32,000 nt of DNA from Promethearchaeota archaeon. Its GTDB lineage: Archaea; Asgardarchaeota; Lokiarchaeia; Sigyniarchaeales; SOKP01. How positions within the stretch are numbered: position 1 is the first letter of the stretch; the number at the start of each line of letters is the position of its first letter. Below are positions 9,060-22,665 of this stretch, piece by piece. Position numbers and translations under genes: made by a program. Below the pieces are notes generated by a model that was given only the letters and a program-made list of their open reading frames with translations, was not told where the DNA came from and searched no databases. The stretch covers positions 390,001 to 422,000 of the forward strand of contig JAUWGH010000004.1 of assembly GCA_030606485.1 (NCBI GenBank). The letters are read 5' to 3'.

Positions 9060-9332
9060 TTAAATTTTATTTTTAAATTTTACTCGTTTTTTAAATTCGA
9101 TTCCTCTTTCAGTTATGTAAAATTCTTCATTATTTTTGCTTATTAAATTAAGATCAATTAAAACTGGTAGTCTTCCATTAATGCATTCCATCGGGACTCC
9201 AGAAAGTAATTTAATCGTTTCTTTTTTCCTTGCCCCTTTTTCGATAGCAAGGAGAATCTCAAACCCCATATCTCCTATTAAATATTTCAAGTTTATACTG
9301 TCATTTGGGGGTTTTTTTTTGTTAGCAGACAT
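9060..9332 (-). CDS. Small winged-helix DNA-binding protein
   Basis: EILLAIEKG...TIKLLSGVPMECINGRLPVLIDLNLISKNNEEFYITERG fits a wHTH with wing; last coding gene of the kinase/SCP2/fusion run. Confidence 0.7.
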   Translation of the reverse strand: MSANKKKPPNDSINLKYLIGDMGFEILLAIEKGARKKETIKLLSGVPMECINGRLPVLIDLNLISKNNEEFYITERGIEFKKRVKFKNKI

Positions 9333-9374
9333 TGTAATATCTAAAACTAAAAAAATTTTAAAGGGTTTTATTTA

Positions 9375-11069
9375 TTAAATTTTCTTGCTTTCTTTGAAAA
9401 TCTCGAATATATCAAGTTCATAATCCACAGTCTCTTCTGGTAAAGATTTTGGGGTTCCAAGTAATTTCGCAAAAATATATATTTTTGCAGTTCTTTCTAG
9501 CATCTTTAAAACGTCTAATGCTCCTTCTATGTGGCTCCCGCAACATATATTTCCATGATTTGATAGAATAACAGCGTTTAAATCACCTAAAGCTTTAATT
9601 GCATTTTCGGCAATTTCTTCAGAGCCAGCTTCACCATAATCTGCTACTTTTACTTCGCCCCCAATATATGGAACAAATTCTTCAACGACAGGTGGAAGAT
9701 TAAGATCCAAAAGACTTAATATAGTAGAATAAACACCATGAGAATGGATGATTGCTCCAACATCAGGTCGATTTTTATAAATAGTTAAATGCATTATTTT
9801 TTCAACCGATGGATTTCTATCACCAATTAAAACATTTCCATCAAAATTTAGAACCAAAATATCATTAGGGTTGATCATTTCATATTTAACATTACTAGGG
9901 GTTATTACAATTTTTTCTTCATTTGGAATTCTAATAGAAAGATTTCCAGAGGAGCCAGAGATAAAACCTTCCTTTAATAATTGTAATCCAACATCTGCTA
10001 ATTTTTTTCGTAATATATGATATGGTATATAAGAATCTTCTTGTTTCTCTTTATAAGTGATTCCAATTCTTTCTAAAACTTCAGGATTTGCTATATTTTT
10101 AGGGGGTTTTTTATCTAATATTGATAGAACATCATCAACAATCATTCTCGAATGTCTTTTTATAACATTTACTGTATTACCGCCATAATGGGGTAATATA
10201 ATTACATTTTCAAATTTTAGAAATTCATTATCTTCATCAATTGGTTCGAGTGGAAAAACATCGAGAGCTACTCCAGCAATTTTTTTATCTTCTAATGCTT
10301 TTTTCAAAGCTCTATAATTCAAAACACTACCTTTTGCTGTATTTATCAAGTAAGAACTAGGCTTCATTAAAGAAATCATTTTTTCATTGATTAAGTTATT
10401 AGTTTCTTCTATTGGTGGAAGATGCAGGGTTATAAAATCTGATTTACTCATCAATTCTTCCAATTCTACAAGAGTTCCAAATTCTTTTACTTTATCTTTA
10501 TAAACAAAAGGATCAGTAATTAGTAAATTAACCCCAAAAGGAATTAATCTTTGTGCTACTAATTTTCCTATATTACCAAATCCAATAACTCCAACGGTCT
10601 TACCTTTAAGTTCAATTCCTTCAAACTTTTTATAATCTCTAACCCAATCTTCTAGATCAATTAGTTCAAAATCCTCTGAATGTAAATATTTATCTACTCT
10701 AGTTAAATTTCTTGCAAGAGTTAAAATTAAACAAAGAGTTAGATCTGCTACTGAGTCAGAATTTCTTTTTGGAGTATAAATAACAGGTATTTTTTTTTCA
10801 GATGCCGTTTTTAAATCAACATTATTCGGGTCATTTCTACATGAAGCGATTATCTTAAGAGAAGATTCTTCAATTACTCTTTTTTTTACATTATCACCCT
10901 CACAAATGAAAATATCAATTTGCTTTAACTTTTCGATTAATTCTTCTTCATCAAAATACAATTGTCCAGATTCTTTCCATGTTTCATATATAACTTCCAT
11001 TTTTTCTTTTAATCGATTAATTTCCGATTCGATAAGTTCTGCAGTAATTAATGCTTTCAGGAGAGACAC
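9375..11069 (-). CDS. Fusion: D-2-hydroxyacid dehydrogenase (SerA-like) + class II aldolase (FucA-like)
   Basis: N-part: GKTVGVIGFGNIG, ITDP, DFITLHLP, INTAKG, DVFPLEP, ILPHYGG. C-part: SSGNLSIR, ITPS, NPSVEKIMH, HSHGVY, LSNHGNICCG (Zn ligands and catalytic Glu present). GTG start. Confidence 0.9.
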   Translation of the reverse strand: MSLLKALITAELIESEINRLKEKMEVIYETWKESGQLYFDEEELIEKLKQIDIFICEGDNVKKRVIEESSLKIIASCRNDPNNVDLKTASEKKIPVIYTPKRNSDSVADLTLCLILTLARNLTRVDKYLHSEDFELIDLEDWVRDYKKFEGIELKGKTVGVIGFGNIGKLVAQRLIPFGVNLLITDPFVYKDKVKEFGTLVELEELMSKSDFITLHLPPIEETNNLINEKMISLMKPSSYLINTAKGSVLNYRALKKALEDKKIAGVALDVFPLEPIDEDNEFLKFENVIILPHYGGNTVNVIKRHSRMIVDDVLSILDKKPPKNIANPEVLERIGITYKEKQEDSYIPYHILRKKLADVGLQLLKEGFISGSSGNLSIRIPNEEKIVITPSNVKYEMINPNDILVLNFDGNVLIGDRNPSVEKIMHLTIYKNRPDVGAIIHSHGVYSTILSLLDLNLPPVVEEFVPYIGGEVKVADYGEAGSEEIAENAIKALGDLNAVILSNHGNICCGSHIEGALDVLKMLERTAKIYIFAKLLGTPKSLPEETVDYELDIFEIFKESKKI

Positions 11070-11075
11070 CTTTTT

Positions 11076-11426
11076 TTAAAATAATAATTTTCGTAATTTT
11101 ATCAAATTTCTAATTTTCCCAGAAACAACTTTTATTTTTCCAGAGGAATATGCCCCAACAGCCCCGATTTCTCCATTTAGAAGATTAATCAAAACTTGTT
11201 CTGATCCAAAATGAATTTTTACAGGAGCATTATCATCACCTACTCCAAATTTTATTTCAATACCTTGATCTCTATGAACTAAAATTAAAGATTTAGTTGA
11301 AGTATCTAAGAAAGTAAGTTCTATCGGATCTTCATAATTAGCAAGTTTTTTTCTAATTTTTTCTTCGGAATTATAGCGATCTATTATCACTTTAAAACCT
11401 TCTTGGATTGTACTAATTTCTGGCAT
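11076..11426 (-). CDS. SCP2 sterol/lipid-binding domain protein
   Basis: APVKIHFGSEQVLINLLNGEIGAVGAYSSGKIKVVSGKIRNLIKL matches the SCP2 C-terminal pattern; AGGAGA SD upstream. Confidence 0.8.
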   Translation of the reverse strand: MPEISTIQEGFKVIIDRYNSEEKIRKKLANYEDPIELTFLDTSTKSLILVHRDQGIEIKFGVGDDNAPVKIHFGSEQVLINLLNGEIGAVGAYSSGKIKVVSGKIRNLIKLRKLLF

Positions 11427-11549
11427 TATTTTTTCTCCTATTTTAATATTGAAAAATCATTTTCAACTATCTTATAAAATTGTATTAATATTATTAATTT
11501 ATTTAAAATATGTCATAAAAACTGTTTTTTAAGTTTCAAACTATAAAAA

Positions 11550-13058
11550 TTATACATATTCTAGTTGTTTTTTAATACGGCCCCAACGACGATAAATATT
11601 TTCATATATTTCAACGATTTCCTTGTTAGGAGTGACCCTTGTTAATTTAATTAATTTTTCTACTGCTTTTTTATAATCTTTATAATAACCTAATCCAATT
11701 AAAACATTAATTGCTTCACCTATAAATGCAGATTCTTTAATCTTCGGTAAGTATAGGTCCTTATTTAAAATATTTGATAGAATTTGATTAAAGCATTTTG
11801 AATTCGTCATACCTCCACTGCAAAGTATTTTATTATGCTTACTTACAAAGTTTAATATTTGGTTTAGGTTTTCCAAAATCCCAAAACCTATATTTTCGAA
11901 TATGGCTCTTAAGAAATTTTTTCTATCTGATAAAATTTCCGAAATTGAACCTGGAGTTGGAAAGACAAAAATTCCGGGTTTAATATTGATTTGATTCTGA
12001 ATATCCATTCTCTCTGGACCAAGAAATGCAAGTGTAGAATTTGCACCTGGTTTTGTTTCCAGTAAATATTTTTCGGTTACAGAATCTATATCATTCGATA
12101 ACCCCTTTAGAAATGAATCTTTATACCAATCATAAATTTTGCCAGTCATACCTGTATTACTTTCTATTAACCATTTATCTTTAACTGCATGTCGTGTTGT
12201 CCACATCTTAAATGTTGGGTCGAATCGAGGTGAATTTAGCACAAAATATAAAGGCGTCGTTGTTCCTAATGTAATTCCAATTTGATTATCATCAATACAA
12301 CCAGTTCCTATTAGATTTGCTTGAGTATCAGCTCCAGTTTTTATTATAGGGGTAGTTTTGGGTATTTCAAATTTTTTCGCTAAATCTGGTTTTAAATCTC
12401 CAGCAATATCTGTAACTTGAATAATTTCAGGAAAAATATCTCTATTAAAGTTGAAAGCATCAATTATTTTATCAGACCACTTATTCTTAACTATATCAAA
12501 TAAAAGAGATTCAGATGCGGAAGTAGGATCTGTACAATAATTCCCTGTTAATTTAAAAATAATCCAATCATCAAATAATAAAACTTTATAAATCTTTTCA
12601 AACAAATCTTCTTTTTCTTCTTGGAACCATAGAAGTCGAGCAAGAGGAAATATCATTGGAGGACTATGACCCGTAATATTAAATAGTGCCTCGTCATCAA
12701 ACATATCCTCTATTAGATATTGTGAATCTATGCCACGTAGATCACAATTTGGGCCAGCATATATTACTTCCTCTTCTTTAGAAAGGAAGATACATGCTTG
12801 TCTTTGAGTACAGGAAGTTATCCCAATAATATTTTTTGAATTGATTTTAGATTTTTTAAGTGTATTTATGATGCAATTTGTCAATTTTCTCCAAATTTCA
12901 TCTGTATTATAACTTTTTGCGAATCCTTCTATATCATCATTTATAAAGAAAAAAAAATCTTCATTGGATACCATAATTTCACAATTCTCCTTCACAACTG
13001 CAGTCTTAATTTTTTGAGAGGAAATATCAATACACAGGATTCCTTTCTCATTGGACAT
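11550..13058 (-). CDS. FGGY-family carbohydrate kinase (LsrK/xylulokinase-like)
   Basis: LARLLWFQE, DDWIIFKLTG..TDPTSASESLLFD, TGADTQANLIG, ITLGTT, RAIFENIGF, CSGGMTNSKCFNQILSNIL. Confidence 0.88.
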   Translation of the reverse strand: MSNEKGILCIDISSQKIKTAVVKENCEIMVSNEDFFFFINDDIEGFAKSYNTDEIWRKLTNCIINTLKKSKINSKNIIGITSCTQRQACIFLSKEEEVIYAGPNCDLRGIDSQYLIEDMFDDEALFNITGHSPPMIFPLARLLWFQEEKEDLFEKIYKVLLFDDWIIFKLTGNYCTDPTSASESLLFDIVKNKWSDKIIDAFNFNRDIFPEIIQVTDIAGDLKPDLAKKFEIPKTTPIIKTGADTQANLIGTGCIDDNQIGITLGTTTPLYFVLNSPRFDPTFKMWTTRHAVKDKWLIESNTGMTGKIYDWYKDSFLKGLSNDIDSVTEKYLLETKPGANSTLAFLGPERMDIQNQINIKPGIFVFPTPGSISEILSDRKNFLRAIFENIGFGILENLNQILNFVSKHNKILCSGGMTNSKCFNQILSNILNKDLYLPKIKESAFIGEAINVLIGLGYYKDYKKAVEKLIKLTRVTPNKEIVEIYENIYRRWGRIKKQLEYV

Positions 13059-13241: not shown

Positions 13242-14474
13242 TTATTTTTTCTTTTTTTTCTTAGACACTTTTCTTTTCTTATCCACTTCATTTCTATAAG
13301 TAGGTTTTGATGATAAATCATCTAGAAAATTTTTTATATCAAATTCTTTTTTTGCAGGTGGTTCATATTTATCAGCTATAACCGCTTTAGTTTCTCTTGA
13401 TAATAATTTTCTAAGATATTTAGGAAACGAAGTAGTTATTTGAATATCAGTTTTTAAGATAACATAAATTGCCCCTTCATGTTTGAATTCATCAATAATT
13501 TCATGTTTTTTTAAAGTGTCGATAATTTCGATATAAGATGCTAAAGCTTTTTCTGATATGAGTTTGGGAAGAACACTTTTTAAAATTGGACCAGTTCTAA
13601 GTTTTAAAAGTACATTGTATATTTTAGAGTCAGAAATCAATTCAAATAATTGAAATGAATCTTCTTTAGTTTGTTTATATACATCAAAAAATTGTGTTAC
13701 TTTTTGAATAACAAGATCAATTAACATTGGATCTTCATCAAAATGTTCAATAACACTTTTTGGTGGCATTCGTATTGATTCAACTTCTTTTACGAGAAGA
13801 ATATATCTTTCATAACCAATTTCATTTATGTGAATAAAATCTTGATCTAATAATGTTTTTATTAAATCTTCAAATAATGATTTTTTGAACGTTTCATTGA
13901 ACCATTTTTGTAAATCTTCATATGTAATTGGTCCATTAGAAAGCTTCTCGAGTGTAAAAAAAATTCCTTTATCTTTTAATAGAATTGATATTTGTTCTTC
14001 TTCAGTTTTTTCACGAATTTCCTCTAATGAGGCCCAATATAATTCCTTTAGCCATAATTTAATTAATTCTTCATTTTCTTCTATTTTTTTTTGTTCAGCT
14101 TCATTATAGCTATTTTTTTCATTTATATAAAAAGCTTTATGTGCTTCTTCATTAGATTGAAGTTTTTCTGCAAATTCAATACACGATGAAAGAATATTAT
14201 GTTCTATTTCTAGAGTCGTTGATTGATCAATTATCACAGATAGCATTAACATTTCCCTACCTCCTCGAGCTATTTCCGAATAAATTTCGAAATAATAATT
14301 CATTGAATTAAGATCTTCAATACTATGGGTAAAAAAGCCTTCTTCAATAGCTTGGTCCATAATATTTGCAATTCTAACATATAGTCTAGCATCCAATACA
14401 TTTTCTGGAAACGAATAATATACTAATGGGCCAATCTTACGATGGAAATAGCTGAGAGAAACGATAGGCTTCAT
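13242..14474 (-). CDS. Longin/uDENN-like N-terminal domain + two winged-helix-like domains (NPRL2-like architecture)
   Basis: N-terminus SLSYFHRKIGPLVYYSFPE fits the FHxxxGP longin/uDENN motif; ARGGRE loop; two wH-like segments (LEKLSNGPITYEDL...LLDQDFI; LLKLRTGPILKSVL...LKKHEII). Confidence 0.6.
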   Translation of the reverse strand: MKPIVSLSYFHRKIGPLVYYSFPENVLDARLYVRIANIMDQAIEEGFFTHSIEDLNSMNYYFEIYSEIARGGREMLMLSVIIDQSTTLEIEHNILSSCIEFAEKLQSNEEAHKAFYINEKNSYNEAEQKKIEENEELIKLWLKELYWASLEEIREKTEEEQISILLKDKGIFFTLEKLSNGPITYEDLQKWFNETFKKSLFEDLIKTLLDQDFIHINEIGYERYILLVKEVESIRMPPKSVIEHFDEDPMLIDLVIQKVTQFFDVYKQTKEDSFQLFELISDSKIYNVLLKLRTGPILKSVLPKLISEKALASYIEIIDTLKKHEIIDEFKHEGAIYVILKTDIQITTSFPKYLRKLLSRETKAVIADKYEPPAKKEFDIKNFLDDLSSKPTYRNEVDKKRKVSKKKKKK

Positions 14475-14762
14475 ACCTTACCCCCTAAAAAAATTTTTTT
14501 TAATGAAATCCAATATTGTGACTTTTTTTTATTAATTTTTTAATTGATTTTTTTATGTATTTTTAAGATTAAAAAATATTCAAATGTGACTCTCTCTAAA
14601 CCATTAAAATACTAAATAGGATTTTATTAAATATATCGATATTAAATAATATCTGTCGATTAAATATATTAAGATTTATTTTAATTAATTTTTATATATT
14701 TTCTTAAGTTTAAAAAATATTTTTATTCATTTTTTTTAATCGGTTCAAATAAGTGAAAAAAA

Positions 14763-15503
14763 GTGGTAATTAAGGTAATAGCATTTGATTTAGATGATAC
14801 ACTTTATAATGCGACAGAATTAGCAAGAGAATCTAGAATTAGCGGTTTAAAAGCTATGATTAAAAAAGGGTTAAAAATGGATTTAAACAGTGCAATTTCA
14901 ACTTTGGATGAGATTGTTAAAGAATATGGCACGAATAATTCTCGTCATTATGATATATTTATTCTACGTATTAATAGATTTGAGCCCCAAATTGATTTTA
15001 TCAGAACAAATCAAAAAAACAAATACGTATCTGCTGCTGTTATGGCATATCATGGGCAAAAAATTATATCGATTAAACCATTTGATGATGTTATTCCTTG
15101 TTTGAAGCAAATTAGGGATTTAGGTATAGAAACTGCAATAATTTCTGATGGAATACCAATTAAACAATATGAAAAAATATTAAGATTGGGAATTGATGAA
15201 TTAATTGATTTAATTGTAATATCGGATGAGATTGGCATCAGAAAACCAAATCCCAAATTATTTGACTATTGCCTTAAAAAATTCGGAGTTAAGGGATATG
15301 AATCTATATATGTAGGAGATAATCTAGAGAAAGATCTCGTTCCGGCTCGTATGAATGGGATGAATAGCGTATATATTCATAGAGGTGGGAAGTATAATAA
15401 TATAACTACGGGAGAGAAAATTCTTAATGGAACAAAACCTGAGTTTGAAATAAATTCTCTTCTAGAATTAAAAGAAATTATAAATAAAATTAATTCTAAA
15501 TAA
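14763..15503 (+). CDS. HAD-superfamily hydrolase (archaeal TIGR02253-like)
   Basis: FDLDDTLY, IISDG, RKPNPKLF, YVGDNLEKDLVPA motifs I-IV; GTG start. Confidence 0.9.
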   Translation: MVIKVIAFDLDDTLYNATELARESRISGLKAMIKKGLKMDLNSAISTLDEIVKEYGTNNSRHYDIFILRINRFEPQIDFIRTNQKNKYVSAAVMAYHGQKIISIKPFDDVIPCLKQIRDLGIETAIISDGIPIKQYEKILRLGIDELIDLIVISDEIGIRKPNPKLFDYCLKKFGVKGYESIYVGDNLEKDLVPARMNGMNSVYIHRGGKYNNITTGEKILNGTKPEFEINSLLELKEIINKINSK

Positions 15504-17239: not shown

Positions 17240-18406
17240 ATGGCATCCCAAATAAAACCTACTTATTTTGGCCCTAAAGCTATATTTGATCCATATTTTA
17301 TTCCTCCTAAGTTATTGCATAGAAAATCTGAGGAAGAAATACTTAGTACAATTTTAAAGGACTCATTTATAGATGATTTTGGGGCAAATATTTTAATTAA
17401 AGGAATAAAAGGGGTTGGGAAAACTGTTTTAATAAATAAAACGATTTCAGATTTAAAAATAAACAGTAAAGATAATGGAAAAGATATTTTGAAATTATTT
17501 GTTAATTGTGAGGGGAAAAATTTAGAAGAAATAATAATTTCATTGATTTTAAACTTAGAAAAGACAGAAGAGATTAAATTAGATATTAATTTCCTGTTAA
17601 ATTTGACTATTCCAAGGCTTTGGAACATTTTAAAACTTGCTTGTAAAAAATTTAATACTTTTAAATTTCTTGTATTTCATAATATTGAAGAAATAGAGCC
17701 CAAGATTTTTAAAAAATTTTTAAGATTTGGTAAAGAGATGAAAATTTCAATAATATCAACAATTAACAGGATTTCCATCAATCCAGAATTAAATTTTCTT
17801 TCAGAATTTGATGTTAAAAAAAGGATTGACTTATATAACCCATCACAATTGTCTGATATAATTAAACAAAGATTTACTTTAACTTATCCCTTTAATATCG
17901 ATAATTCTCTTTCAGATTTCATGGTTGATTTAGTTGCAGAATATGATTATCTGAGACCAGGCAAATGCATAGAATTGATGAGAGAAATTTATCCAATCAT
18001 TAAAAAAAATAGAAATATTACGTCTGATCACTTGCGAGAACAATGTTTACTTCAATTTGATACTTTTTCTTTGGATGAATTTGAAATAATATCATATTTA
18101 ACGGAAGCAGATATTTTAATAGACATCTTTCTGGATAATTTAGCAAACTACTTTTCTAATGAATATAATTATTACATTGATTTAGTTAAATTAAGAGAAT
18201 TATATGAGGTATCTTGTGAGACATTAGAATTTGAAAAAAATTCTAGTGAATTTAATCGAATACTTGCAAAGCTATTAGATTTGGAAATTTTAAAAGAATC
18301 AAAATTTGATAGAAAATACACCAATAATACAAGATTTTTTTATTCAATAATGCAGACATCTCAATTAAAAACTATGATTGATGTTATATTTGGAAAAATA
18401 AAATAA
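17240..18406 (+). CDS. Divergent Cdc6/Orc1-family AAA+ protein with C-terminal winged helix
   Basis: FDPYFIPPKLLHRKSEE, Walker A GIKGVGKT, sensor-1 ISTIN, LYNPSQLSDIIKQR, LYEVSCE...FNRILAKLLDLEIL. Walker B degenerate (FLVFHNIE). Confidence 0.85.
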   Translation: MASQIKPTYFGPKAIFDPYFIPPKLLHRKSEEEILSTILKDSFIDDFGANILIKGIKGVGKTVLINKTISDLKINSKDNGKDILKLFVNCEGKNLEEIIISLILNLEKTEEIKLDINFLLNLTIPRLWNILKLACKKFNTFKFLVFHNIEEIEPKIFKKFLRFGKEMKISIISTINRISINPELNFLSEFDVKKRIDLYNPSQLSDIIKQRFTLTYPFNIDNSLSDFMVDLVAEYDYLRPGKCIELMREIYPIIKKNRNITSDHLREQCLLQFDTFSLDEFEIISYLTEADILIDIFLDNLANYFSNEYNYYIDLVKLRELYEVSCETLEFEKNSSEFNRILAKLLDLEILKESKFDRKYTNNTRFFYSIMQTSQLKTMIDVIFGKIK

Positions 18407-22059: not shown

Positions 22060-22665
22060 ATGGTTAGAAGGGATATAAATTTGAAATTTGATAATAAAAA
22101 AAAAATAATAGATGTAAAAATTGTTTTTTATGGCCCTGCACTAAGTGGAAAGACTACAACTTTAAAATATCTATTCCAAAAATTTGGGAAATTAGATAAA
22201 ATTAAATCCATTAATACTACCACCGGAAGAACTTTATTTTTTGATTTTGGAATAATAAAGTTAAAAGGTATTGAGTGGGATGTTAAATTTTTAATTTATT
22301 CAACTACTGGCCAAGATTACTATGCAATAACTCGTCCAACGACATTGCAAGGAGCAGATGGAATAATTTTTGTTGCTGATTCTTTTGTAGAAAGTTTTAA
22401 TAGAAACTTGGTTTCATGGAGAGAATTAGCCAGTCTTTATGGGGAAAAATTGCTGAAAATGCCCATTGTATGCAATTTCAACAAGCAAGATTTATTAAGG
22501 AAATTTAATTTTTATGAGTTTTTAGAGAAAATTTTTTTTGAAAAATATAAATCATTTGCCTTTTTTAAAACAATAGCACTTTTAGGAGATGGAGTTGTTA
22601 ATTCTTTTAAAAAAATTATTGAACTCATATTTCCAGGATTAATAATTAACCAAATATCAATTTAA
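22060..22665 (+). CDS. MglA-type small GTPase
   Basis: KIVFYGPALSGKTT, GRTLFFDFG (intrinsic Arg), YSTTGQ (TxxGQ in place of DxxG), GIIFVADS, NKQD. Confidence 0.88.
   Translation: MVRRDINLKFDNKKKIIDVKIVFYGPALSGKTTTLKYLFQKFGKLDKIKSINTTTGRTLFFDFGIIKLKGIEWDVKFLIYSTTGQDYYAITRPTTLQGADGIIFVADSFVESFNRNLVSWRELASLYGEKLLKMPIVCNFNKQDLLRKFNFYEFLEKIFFEKYKSFAFFKTIALLGDGVVNSFKKIIELIFPGLIINQISI

What the first reader, a model, noticed from the sequence alone, without database searches (positions are those of the whole stretch)
13242..14474. NPRL2/GATOR1-like protein: longin domain with candidate arginine finger plus tandem winged helices
Seen: N-terminus SLSYFHRKIGPLVYYSFPE, loop YFEIYSEIAR70GGR73EMLMLSVIID, and two wH-like C-terminal segments. 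As I recall it, human NPRL2 reads [20 protein letters not shown] and CIEHKKYSR78NALLFNLGFVCD; by-eye alignment places R70 within one residue of R78. Established: NPRL2 R78, FLCN R164 and SMCR8 R147 are longin-loop arginine fingers acting as GAPs on Rag/Arf-type GTPases, and NPRL2/3 end in winged-helix domains. Inference: an archaeal single-gene prototype of a GATOR1-like GAP, implying Rag-type nutrient-signalling control in this lineage. Asgard longin/DENN families are known in general; the GAP finger and full architecture are the points to test.
Basis: partly seen in the sequence, partly recalled or inferred. Interest (0 to 1): 0.75.

Follow-up and report, generated by a model that had tools for sequence, protein, structure and literature searches.

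The report
Lokiarchaeal GAP-type longin, winged-helix protein
This gene encodes a conserved, unannotated protein of Loki-type Asgard archaea whose front end looks like the "longin" module that eukaryotic folliculin, SMCR8 and NPRL2 use to switch off small GTPases, followed by two generic winged-helix domains. It belongs to a class already described in the literature and is not a proven NPRL2 orthologue.

Summary
The ORF (13242-14474, minus strand, 410 aa) is real and well conserved. The longin fold is confirmed: the AF2 model aligns to folliculin at Z 13.8, and to NPRL2/Npr2 over about 190 residues at Z 11.4-11.8. R70 is the conserved arginine. It is invariant in the family and present in 111 of 119 representatives of the wider domain superfamily. 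It sits in the beta4-beta5 loop, and the GP motif (G15-P16) is conserved with it. R73 is not conserved. The C-terminal half is two generic winged helices, so the overall architecture is NPRL2/3-like.

The protein does not match Pfam NPR2, and its folliculin match is below threshold. The full-length family was found in only one order (59 of 60 sampled relatives, plus the window's own genome). The substrate GTPase is unknown. The same ARG-type longin occurs fused to Arf-like and Rag-like GTPases elsewhere.

A new detail is a paralogue in this genome, family B, which shares the winged-helix half. Its longin carries a C9orf72-like W-D-x3-G motif and no arginine. A predicted A-B heterodimer has only weak support.

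The class is published (Liu et al. 2020 preprint; Traffic 2025). This scan already found the same family on other DNA (e1-2221258). Verdict: a new member of a known kind; the GAP function is inferred, not shown.

The parts
13242..14474 (-). CDS, 410 aa (family A): GAP-type longin + helical linker + two winged helices + basic tail
14145..14474 (-). Longin domain, aa 1-110 (b1 4-11, b2 15-22, a1 29-39, b3 46-52, b4 55-65, b5 73-82, a2 88-107)
   Evidence: AF2 model. VIA: FLCN 8dhb_J Z 13.8, rmsd 2.8, 138 aligned. Pfam Folliculin sub-threshold, E 0.025-0.07.
14427..14432 (-). GP motif (G15-P16) at the start of strand b2, within F10-H11-x3-G-P
   Evidence: Invariant in alignment A3 of 46 diverse domains. 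G in 106 of 108 and P in 103 of 108 representatives. Motif significance from PMC12290439.
14262..14270 (-). A69-R70-G71: candidate arginine finger in the b4-b5 loop (consensus S-x-W-A-R-G)
   Evidence: R70 invariant in A1 and A3 and present in 111 of 119 representatives. Loop position from the DSSP of the model.
14004..14144 (-). Helical linker, aa 111-157 (two long helices); packs with the longin as in NPRL2
   Evidence: NPRL2 chains align over model residues 1-219.
13761..14003 (-). Winged helix 1, aa 158-238; acidic (net -6)
   Evidence: MecI Z 8.9, Rpa2-WH Z 8.2, cullin WHB Z 8.6. Charge.
13395..13676 (-). Winged helix 2, aa 267-360 (ArsR/SmtB-like); net +4
   Evidence: SrnR Z 7.6-7.8, PagR Z 7.3-7.8, SqrR Z 8.9. 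Charge.
13245..13394 (-). Disordered basic tail, aa 361-410, holding the conserved F-L-(E/D)-D-L-S-S motif and a Lys run; absent in the shorter family members
   Evidence: pLDDT below 50; alignment tails
14475..14762 (.). AT-rich divergent intergenic region shared with the HAD-hydrolase gene (14763..15503 +). An SD-like G-run lies at 14481-14486.
   Evidence: The divergent HAD + CN_hydrolase arrangement is conserved in 5 of 5 relatives examined.

Best explanation
The gene encodes a cytoplasmic regulator of a small GTPase. Its N-terminal longin domain belongs to the GAP-type longin class (FLCN/SMCR8/NPRL2/C9orf72). I propose that it binds the nucleotide-pocket face of an Asgard Arf-like or Rag-like GTPase in its GTP state, and that R70, from the beta4-beta5 loop next to the G15-P16 hairpin, enters the pocket as an arginine finger and speeds GTP hydrolysis. 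The helical linker and two winged helices would act as a protein-protein scaffold, as in NPRL2/NPRL3. They most likely pair the protein with a second longin/winged-helix subunit: the WD-motif paralogue, family B, encoded at G000:C10:184069-185163.

Shown here: the fold, the motif conservation, the architecture, the paralogy, and the fusions of this longin type to GTPases. Inferred: GAP catalysis, the identity of the GTPase, and the heterodimer.
For: Fold: FLCN 8dhb_J Z 13.8 (138 aligned, rmsd 2.8). NPRL2 chains 9o5a_H, 9o5d_D and 9v0j_A give Z 11.6-11.8 with 190-193 residues aligned over model 1-219. Npr2 8adl_S gives Z 11.4. The Foldseek top six hits are GATOR1/SEAC chains, E 2e-6 to 3e-4. 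The Atlas shape search returns eukaryotic NPR2 clusters spanning 1-360, plus a Heimdall folliculin-type cluster and SMCR8.

Motifs: G15, P16 and R70 are the only invariant columns across 46 diverse domains at 26-56% identity. R70 is present in 111 of 119 representatives. PMC12290439 reports that GP plus the arginine finger mark GAP longins, are absent from non-GAP longins, and occur in Asgard longins.

Link to GTPases: ARG-type longins are fused to Arf-family GTPases in P0203, P0212, P0229 and P0249. In this genome one is fused to a Rag-like GTPase (L062, 480 aa) and another is encoded next to a Ras-like GTPase (L003). A Rag-like GTPase lies 2 kb from the orthologue in 2 of 5 relatives.

Partner: family B shares the winged-helix half (24% identity, E 1e-11). 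Its longin aligns in register with that of A (hhalign 79.5%, E 1.5e-5). It carries a near-invariant W10-D11-x3-G15 with the spacing of C9orf72 W33-D34/G38. The complex prediction gave weak support: score 0.47 against a best control of 0.00. That mark was reached by 58 of 80 solved complexes and 2 of 110 mismatched pairs. At 0.60 or under, however, it was reached by only 7 of those 80 and by both of the mismatches. The runs agree in at least 70% of contacts, and the partner's pLDDT is at least 82.
Against: There is no biochemical evidence. HMMER profiles find no solved relative by sequence. Pfam NPR2 gives no hit, and Folliculin scores only 13-15 bits against a cut-off of 23.3.

Its placement rests on topology and the literature.

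No GTPase gene is adjacent in this genome. The conserved neighbours are a HAD hydrolase and a CN hydrolase.

Family B is far more widespread (163 of 251 genomes) than family A (60 of 251). B therefore works without A in most lineages. The heterodimer score is in the weak band, and A and B are paralogues, so the pass may reflect likeness only. Most longin domains are GEF or platform modules rather than GAPs.
Confidence: 0.55

Rival explanations
1. It is a non-catalytic GTPase platform, GEF or effector-adaptor. The longin binds a small GTPase, or a receptor tail as proposed for family B, without supplying a catalytic arginine. R70 would serve binding or stability.
For: Most longin and roadblock domains are GEF or platform modules (PMC3747258). 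VIA also gives Z 8-10 to DENN, TRAPP, Mon1-Ccz1 and adaptin sigma/mu longins. The paralogous family B lacks the arginine, yet it is the more widespread and more conserved family.
Against: The GP + Arg combination is reported as specific to GAP longins. Near-universal conservation of a loop arginine within S-x-W-A-R-G across diverse architectures points to a catalytic or contact role. The top structural matches are the GAP longins.
Confidence: 0.22
2. It is a true orthologue or prototype of NPRL2/GATOR1 that controls Rag-type nutrient signalling.
For: Longin plus at least two winged helices is the NPRL2/3 architecture. NPRL2/Npr2 align over the longest stretch, 190-193 residues. NPR2 clusters are the nearest named full-length shapes. 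The genome has about 14 Rag-like GTPases above 60 bits.
Against: PF06218 gives no match. The C-terminal half alone retrieves no NPRL2 chain. As I recall the eukaryotic sequences, the A-R-G loop is FLCN/SMCR8-like rather than NPRL2-like, and FLCN has the best Z. The family was found in only one order and not in the other 26 families sampled, which fits a lineage-specific domain combination better than an ancestor of GATOR1. It has no Rag linkage in this genome. I did not search for a DEPDC5 counterpart.
Confidence: 0.1
3. It is a one-component transcription regulator. The longin would act as a ligand or partner sensor, with winged helix 2 and the Lys-rich tail binding DNA.
For: Winged helix 2 resembles ArsR/SmtB repressors (Z 7.3-8.9) and is mildly basic (+4); the tail is +8. 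A sensor domain followed by a winged helix is a common prokaryotic design. Foldseek gave weak hits to CodY.
Against: Winged helix 1 is acidic (net -6; family median -4.5). The median charge of winged helix 2 across the family is only +1, and the tail is missing from many orthologues. The most conserved residues are the GAP-longin motifs, not a recognition helix. The NPRL2/3 winged helices are protein-binding.
Confidence: 0.06

Closest known systems
Folliculin (FLCN) and SMCR8 longin domains (Pfam PF11704; 'FLCN/SMCR8-type' longin), arginine-finger GAP subunits for RagC/D and Arf
   Same: Best structural match of the longin domain (Z 12.9-13.8). Folliculin is the only Pfam family that scores at all. 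The GP motif precedes strand b2 and an arginine sits in the b4-b5 loop. As I recall the human sequences, FLCN and SMCR8 also carry the finger in an A-R-G-F context; this is memory, not a tool result.
   Different: The Pfam score is below threshold. The C-terminal half is two winged helices instead of a DENN domain. No FNIP or C9orf72 orthologue is known. The substrate is unknown.
NPRL2/Npr2 (GATOR1/SEACIT catalytic subunit, Pfam PF06218) and its paralogue NPRL3
   Same: The architecture is longin plus at least two winged helices. The longest rigid-body alignment is to NPRL2/Npr2, 190-193 residues covering the longin, the linker and the start of winged helix 1. NPR2 clusters are the nearest named full-length shapes. 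A second, arginine-less paralogue exists, as with NPRL3.
   Different: PF06218 gives no match. The winged helices are generic when searched alone. No DEPDC5-like partner was examined. The family is restricted to one Asgard order.
Published Asgard 'NPRL2-like' and 'FLCN/SMCR8-type' longin proteins (Liu et al., bioRxiv 10.1101/2020.10.19.343400; Traffic 2025, PMC12290439)
   Same: Same class: Asgard longins with a GP motif and an arginine finger, some with an NPRL2-like C-terminal part, others fused to two-component or GTPase domains.
   Different: I could not check whether this exact family is among the published sequences, because the supplements were not available. The pairing with a WD-motif paralogue is not mentioned in the text I could read.
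C9orf72-SMCR8 (CSW) two-longin catalytic pocket
   Same: One subunit carries the arginine (here family A). The other carries W-D five residues before a G(P) at the b1-b2 hairpin (here family B: W10-D11, G15), with the same spacing as C9orf72 W33-D34/G38-P39.
   Different: The A-B complex has only weak computational support. There are no DENN domains and no WDR41. Family B usually has T, V or A instead of P after the glycine.

Membership tests
GAP-type longin class (FLCN/SMCR8/NPRL2/C9orf72) | Longin fold (b-b-a-b-b-b-a-a) | tested here: met
   AF2 secondary structure. VIA gives Z 11.4-13.8 to FLCN, NPRL2, NPRL3, Npr2 and Lst4.
GAP-type longin class (FLCN/SMCR8/NPRL2/C9orf72) | GP motif at the loop/start of strand b2 | tested here: met
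   G15-P16 are invariant in A1 and A3 and present in 103-106 of 108 representatives. Definition from PMC12290439.
GAP-type longin class (FLCN/SMCR8/NPRL2/C9orf72) | Conserved arginine finger in the longin loop next to the GP motif | tested here: inconclusive
   R70 is conserved (111 of 119) and lies in the b4-b5 loop. Its spatial position relative to GP and to a GTPase could not be measured, because no coordinates or residue-level superposition were available.
GAP-type longin class (FLCN/SMCR8/NPRL2/C9orf72) | Arg-dependent GAP activity on a small GTPase | not testable with these tools
   Needs biochemistry.
GAP-type longin class (FLCN/SMCR8/NPRL2/C9orf72) | Works as a dimer with a second longin subunit | tested here: inconclusive
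   Paralogue B exists. Complex prediction gave weak support: 0.47 against a best control of 0.00.
NPRL2/Npr2 (Pfam PF06218) | Match to the NPR2 family model | tested here: not met
   No PF06218 hit for the protein at E up to 10, nor anywhere in the genome at E up to 1.
NPRL2/Npr2 (Pfam PF06218) | N-terminal longin followed by two or more winged helices | tested here: met
   Definition from PMC3747258.
NPRL2/Npr2 (Pfam PF06218) | C-terminal domain specifically similar to that of NPRL2 | tested here: inconclusive
   The full-length alignments extend to residue 219, and to about 360 in the Atlas. The C-terminal model alone retrieves only generic winged helices.
NPRL2/Npr2 (Pfam PF06218) | Part of a DEPDC5/NPRL3 complex acting on RagA/B | not tested
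   No search for a DEPDC5/Iml1 homologue was run. No Rag gene is linked to it in this genome.
Folliculin (Pfam PF11704) | Match over the curated cut-off | tested here: not met
   13.4-14.8 bits against a cut-off of 23.3.
Folliculin (Pfam PF11704) | C-terminal DENN domain | tested here: not met
   The C-terminal half is two winged helices.

The most novel reading that the evidence does not exclude
Family A (arginine finger, F-H-x3-G-P) and family B (W-D-x3-G, no arginine) may form an archaeal two-longin GAP. Its composite pocket would mirror SMCR8-C9orf72 or NPRL2-NPRL3, held together by their shared tandem winged helices. Earlier notes of this scan propose that B is made together with giant surface proteins and docks on their cytoplasmic tails. 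If so, A would be the catalytic 'off' arm of a receptor-adaptor-GTPase module in Lokiarchaeales.
Probability: 0.22. Interest if true: 0.75.

Novelty: new member of a known kind. Interest (0 to 1): 0.4.

Why it matters
Asgard archaea encode dozens of small GTPases (about 60 in this genome), yet no native GAP or GEF has been shown experimentally. A conserved, single-copy-like protein that carries both hallmarks of eukaryotic longin GAPs is a concrete candidate for biochemistry. A positive result would place the longin-GAP mechanism before eukaryogenesis. The idea itself is already published for Asgard longins in general. What this locus adds is a specific, testable protein, and possibly a specific partner.

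Tried and rejected
- **Sequence searches against solved structures.** The profile of the family and the profile of 46 diverse longin domains gave no FLCN, NPRL2 or SMCR8 hit, only chance rows.
- **Family libraries.** NCBIfam gave nothing. Pfam NPR2 gave nothing in the genome.
- **C-terminal half alone.** Searched against the PDB by Foldseek and VIA, it returned only generic winged helices (STK19, ESCRT-II, ArsR, MecI, cullin WHB) and no NPRL2 chain.
- **Protein-atlas feature search.** For both A and B it returned only unnamed Asgard clusters.
- **Published sequences.** The supplements of the two key papers are not held, so I could not check whether this exact family is among the published sequences.
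- **Rag-like neighbour.** I looked in this genome for an orthologue of the 318-aa Rag-like GTPase that lies near the gene in two relatives. The best match is only 32-35% identical, so there is no clear orthologue.
- **Operon logic.** The conserved neighbours are a HAD hydrolase and a CN hydrolase, transcribed divergently. I see no functional link.
- **R73 as a second finger.** Rejected, because it is not conserved.
- **ARG-type orthologues in a Thor-like family (f8).** The tandem winged-helix proteins whose N-termini I could read there are all of the WD/LD type, none of the ARG type.

Full report
**Observation.** The ATG is preceded by an SD-like G-run. Homologues start at the same position. 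More than 400 proteins from Loki-type Asgard metagenomes match it at E below 1e-3, typically at 50-70% identity over the full length. All are called 'hypothetical'. The gene is real and under strong constraint.

**Fold.** An AF2 model built on a 28-sequence alignment (mean pLDDT 77.8, pTM 0.69) shows the following:
- a longin-type b-b-a-b-b-b-a core, residues 1-110;
- two long helices, residues 111-153;
- two units of helices followed by a three-stranded wing, residues about 158-238 and 267-360;
- a disordered basic tail.

Foldseek against the PDB puts GATOR1/SEAC chains first: 9o5d_D, 9v0j_A, 9o5a_H, 7t3b_B, 8adl_S and 9h4q_T, at E 2e-6 to 3e-4 with 307-410 alignment columns. From chain length and memory I take these to be NPRL2/Npr2.

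VIA-align puts folliculin first for the longin proper: 8dhb_J at Z 13.8, rmsd 2.8, 138 aligned; 6ulg_L and 6nzd_H at Z 12.9. A Lokiarchaeal roadblock-longin follows (8yqg, Z 12.7), then NPRL3, Lst4 and the NPRL2/Npr2 chains. The NPRL2/Npr2 chains score Z 11.4-11.8 but align 190-193 residues over model 1-219, that is, the longin plus the linker plus the start of winged helix 1. Ordinary longins (Sec22, VAMP7, sedlin, adaptin sigma/mu, DENN) follow at Z 8-10.

A shape search of the ESM Atlas returns three kinds of cluster after the family's own: an Asgard longin-Arf fusion cluster, three eukaryotic PF06218 (NPR2) clusters aligned over residues 1-360, and a Heimdall cluster partly annotated as folliculin together with SMCR8. 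The N-terminal domain is therefore a longin, and its nearest relatives are the GAP longins.

**Motifs.** Within the family, R70 and G71 are invariant and G15-P16 nearly so. R73 varies. I aligned the longin domains of 128 representatives at 50% identity from an exhaustive HMMER search. The counts are G15 106 of 108, P16 103 of 108, S66 117, R70 111 of 119 and G71 106 of 119. Position 73 is K 69, V 14, R 13. In 46 diverse domains (26-56% identity to the query), the only invariant columns are G15, P16 and R70.

R70 lies in the loop between strands b4 (55-65) and b5 (73-82). G15-P16 open strand b2. In the longin sheet order the b1-b2 and b4-b5 hairpins lie on the same edge, so the two motifs should be neighbours. 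This is an inference from topology that I could not measure.

A 2025 paper (PMC12290439) reports that this pair, GP before b2 plus the arginine finger, marks FLCN, NPRL2, SMCR8 and C9orf72. It reports that the pair is absent from FNIP2, NPRL3 and non-GAP longins, and that it occurs in 'FLCN/SMCR8-type' Asgard longins.

**C-terminal half.** A separate model of residues 150-372 (pLDDT 85.9, pTM 0.81) matches only generic winged helices. The best are MecI (Z 8.9), NolR (8.8), cullin WHB (8.6) and Rpa2-WH (8.2) for unit 1, and SrnR, PagR and CzrA (7.3-7.6) for unit 2. The best Foldseek rows (STK19, ESCRT-II, ArsR) are at E about 0.01. No NPRL2 chain appears in either list.

The literature states that NPRL2/NPRL3 have an N-terminal longin and two or more winged helices (PMC3747258). 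The architecture is therefore shared, but there is no domain-specific signal. Winged helix 1 is acidic (net -6), winged helix 2 is mildly basic (+4; family median +1), and the tail is +8 but absent from many orthologues. This argues against a DNA-binding role.

**Membership.**
- Pfam NPR2 (PF06218) does not match the protein or anything else in the genome.
- Folliculin (PF11704) scores 13-15 bits against a cut-off of 23.3.
- HMMER profiles find no solved relative.

I therefore file the protein in the GAP-type longin class by fold and motifs, not as an NPRL2 or FLCN family member.

**Distribution and context.** At E below 1e-40 the full-length family occurs in 54 of 55 and 5 of 5 genomes of two families of one order. 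It was not found in the other 191 genomes sampled from the phylum. The genus of this genome has a second, tail-less copy (L002).

In five relatives and in this window the gene is always divergent from a HAD hydrolase + CN hydrolase pair. I see no functional link. A 318-aa Rag-like GTPase lies 2 kb away in two of the five relatives but has no clear orthologue here. The genome has about 60 small-GTPase hits, about 14 of them strongly Rag-like. None is next to the gene; the nearest is at 22060-22665 in the window.

**Link to GTPases.** The ARG-type longin domain is fused directly to Arf-family GTPase domains, followed by PAS/GAF/histidine-kinase parts, in P0203, P0212, P0229 and P0249. This fits the fusions noted by Liu et al.. 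In this genome it is fused to a Rag-like GTPase in a 480-aa protein (L062). In a 289-aa protein it is encoded just upstream of a 181-aa Ras-like GTPase (L003). These fusions and neighbourhoods tie this domain type to small GTPases, but they do not say which GTPase the window's protein uses.

**A paralogue.** The genome encodes a 366-aa protein, family B (P0271, G000:C10), whose C-terminal 210 residues are homologous to those of A (24% identity, E 1e-11). Its N-terminal domain aligns with the A-type longin in register (hhalign probability 79.5%, E 1.5e-5). B lacks the loop arginine.

Instead, B carries W10-D11-x3-G15. In 25 close members W10 and G15 are invariant and D11 is nearly so. In 15 diverse members D11 and G15 are invariant and W10 is present in 14. 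C9orf72's essential W33-D34 and its G38-P39 have the same spacing.

B is much more widespread (163 of 251 genomes). It is often multi-copy and is sometimes the end of a giant protein of about 2650 aa. In a Thor-like family there are three WD/LD-type paralogues, and none of those I could read is of the ARG type.

A predicted A-B complex got 'weak support'. The score was 0.47 against a best control of 0.00. The mark was reached by 58 of 80 solved complexes and 2 of 110 mismatched pairs, but at 0.60 or under by only 7 of those 80 and by both of the mismatches. The runs agree in at least 70% of contacts, and the partner's pLDDT is at least 82. Because A and B are paralogues, a pass may reflect likeness only.

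Earlier notes of this scan (e1-5453669, e1-2385050, e1-4846219, e1-5444990) describe B as translationally coupled to giant surface proteins and tied to an Arf-like GTPase. I saw the overlapping upstream membrane-protein ORF and the giant fusions, but I did not test the docking.

**Explanation.** The best reading (0.55) is an arginine-finger GAP subunit for an Arf-like or Rag-like Asgard GTPase. The winged helices serve as a scaffold, and the protein probably acts with a second longin subunit. The rivals are:
- a non-catalytic platform or GEF (0.22);
- a true NPRL2/GATOR1 prototype for Rag signalling (0.10);
- a transcription regulator (0.06).

**Novelty.** Liu et al. (bioRxiv 10.1101/2020.10.19.343400) already describe NPRL2-like longin proteins and their fusions in Asgards. 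[quoted passage not shown] This scan has also followed up the same family on other DNA, with the same conclusion (e1-2221258). The locus is a new member of a known kind. The A/B pairing with a C9orf72-like WD motif is the only part I did not find in print, and it rests on motif spacing plus a weak complex score.

Noticed in passing
G000:C10:184069-185163 (L004:1144-2244): This is family B, a 366-aa paralogue with a W-D-x3-G longin and the same tandem winged helices. Its ATG overlaps the stop of an upstream membrane protein that has a Pro/Glu-rich cytoplasmic tail. In other genomes the same module forms the end of proteins of about 2650 aa.
   Followed up: partly
G000:C11:22985-24055 (L002): This is a second, tail-less copy of the window's protein (about 356-360 aa, 66% identical, GP and ARG kept). 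It is present in all four sampled genomes of the genus, so it is a real paralogue rather than contamination.
   Followed up: partly
G000:C1, L062:967-2409: This 480-aa protein has an N-terminal GP/ARG-type longin (loop motif E-A-R-G) fused to a Rag-like GTPase and its C-terminal domain. It is a possible in-cis GAP-GTPase arrangement.
   Followed up: no
G000:C10, L003:1051-1920 and 235-780: A 289-aa protein with an ARG-type longin (F-D-x3-G-P; S-G-W-A-R-G) and an unassigned C-terminal domain is encoded just upstream of a 181-aa Ras/Rab-like GTPase on the same strand.
   Followed up: no
window 22060-22665 (+): This 201-aa small GTPase (Arf-model E 9.5e-8) is the only GTPase gene in the window. 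It lies 7.6 kb from the longin gene with unrelated genes between.
   Followed up: no
window 13245-13394 (aa 361-410) and homologues: The variable basic tail holds a conserved short motif, (I/N)-x-F-L-E-D-L-S-S, followed by Lys-rich residues. It is present in most orthologues of about 420 aa and absent in those of 380-386 aa. It may be a linear binding motif or a membrane-binding segment.
   Followed up: no
L006, L008, L060, L061 downstream of the orthologue; window 9060-13058: In relatives an 81-84-aa winged-helix protein (HTH_45, weak or faint) lies downstream of the gene on the same strand: directly after it in three, and after one intervening ORF in L061. In this window the FGGY-kinase/dehydrogenase-aldolase cluster lies in that position.
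   Followed up: no
window 17240-18406 (+): This 388-aa protein has no Pfam match. Proteins of 396-414 aa, also without Pfam matches, occupy the corresponding syntenic position next to a giant protein of about 1480 aa (SMC-like where Pfam hits are on record) in four relatives.
   Followed up: no
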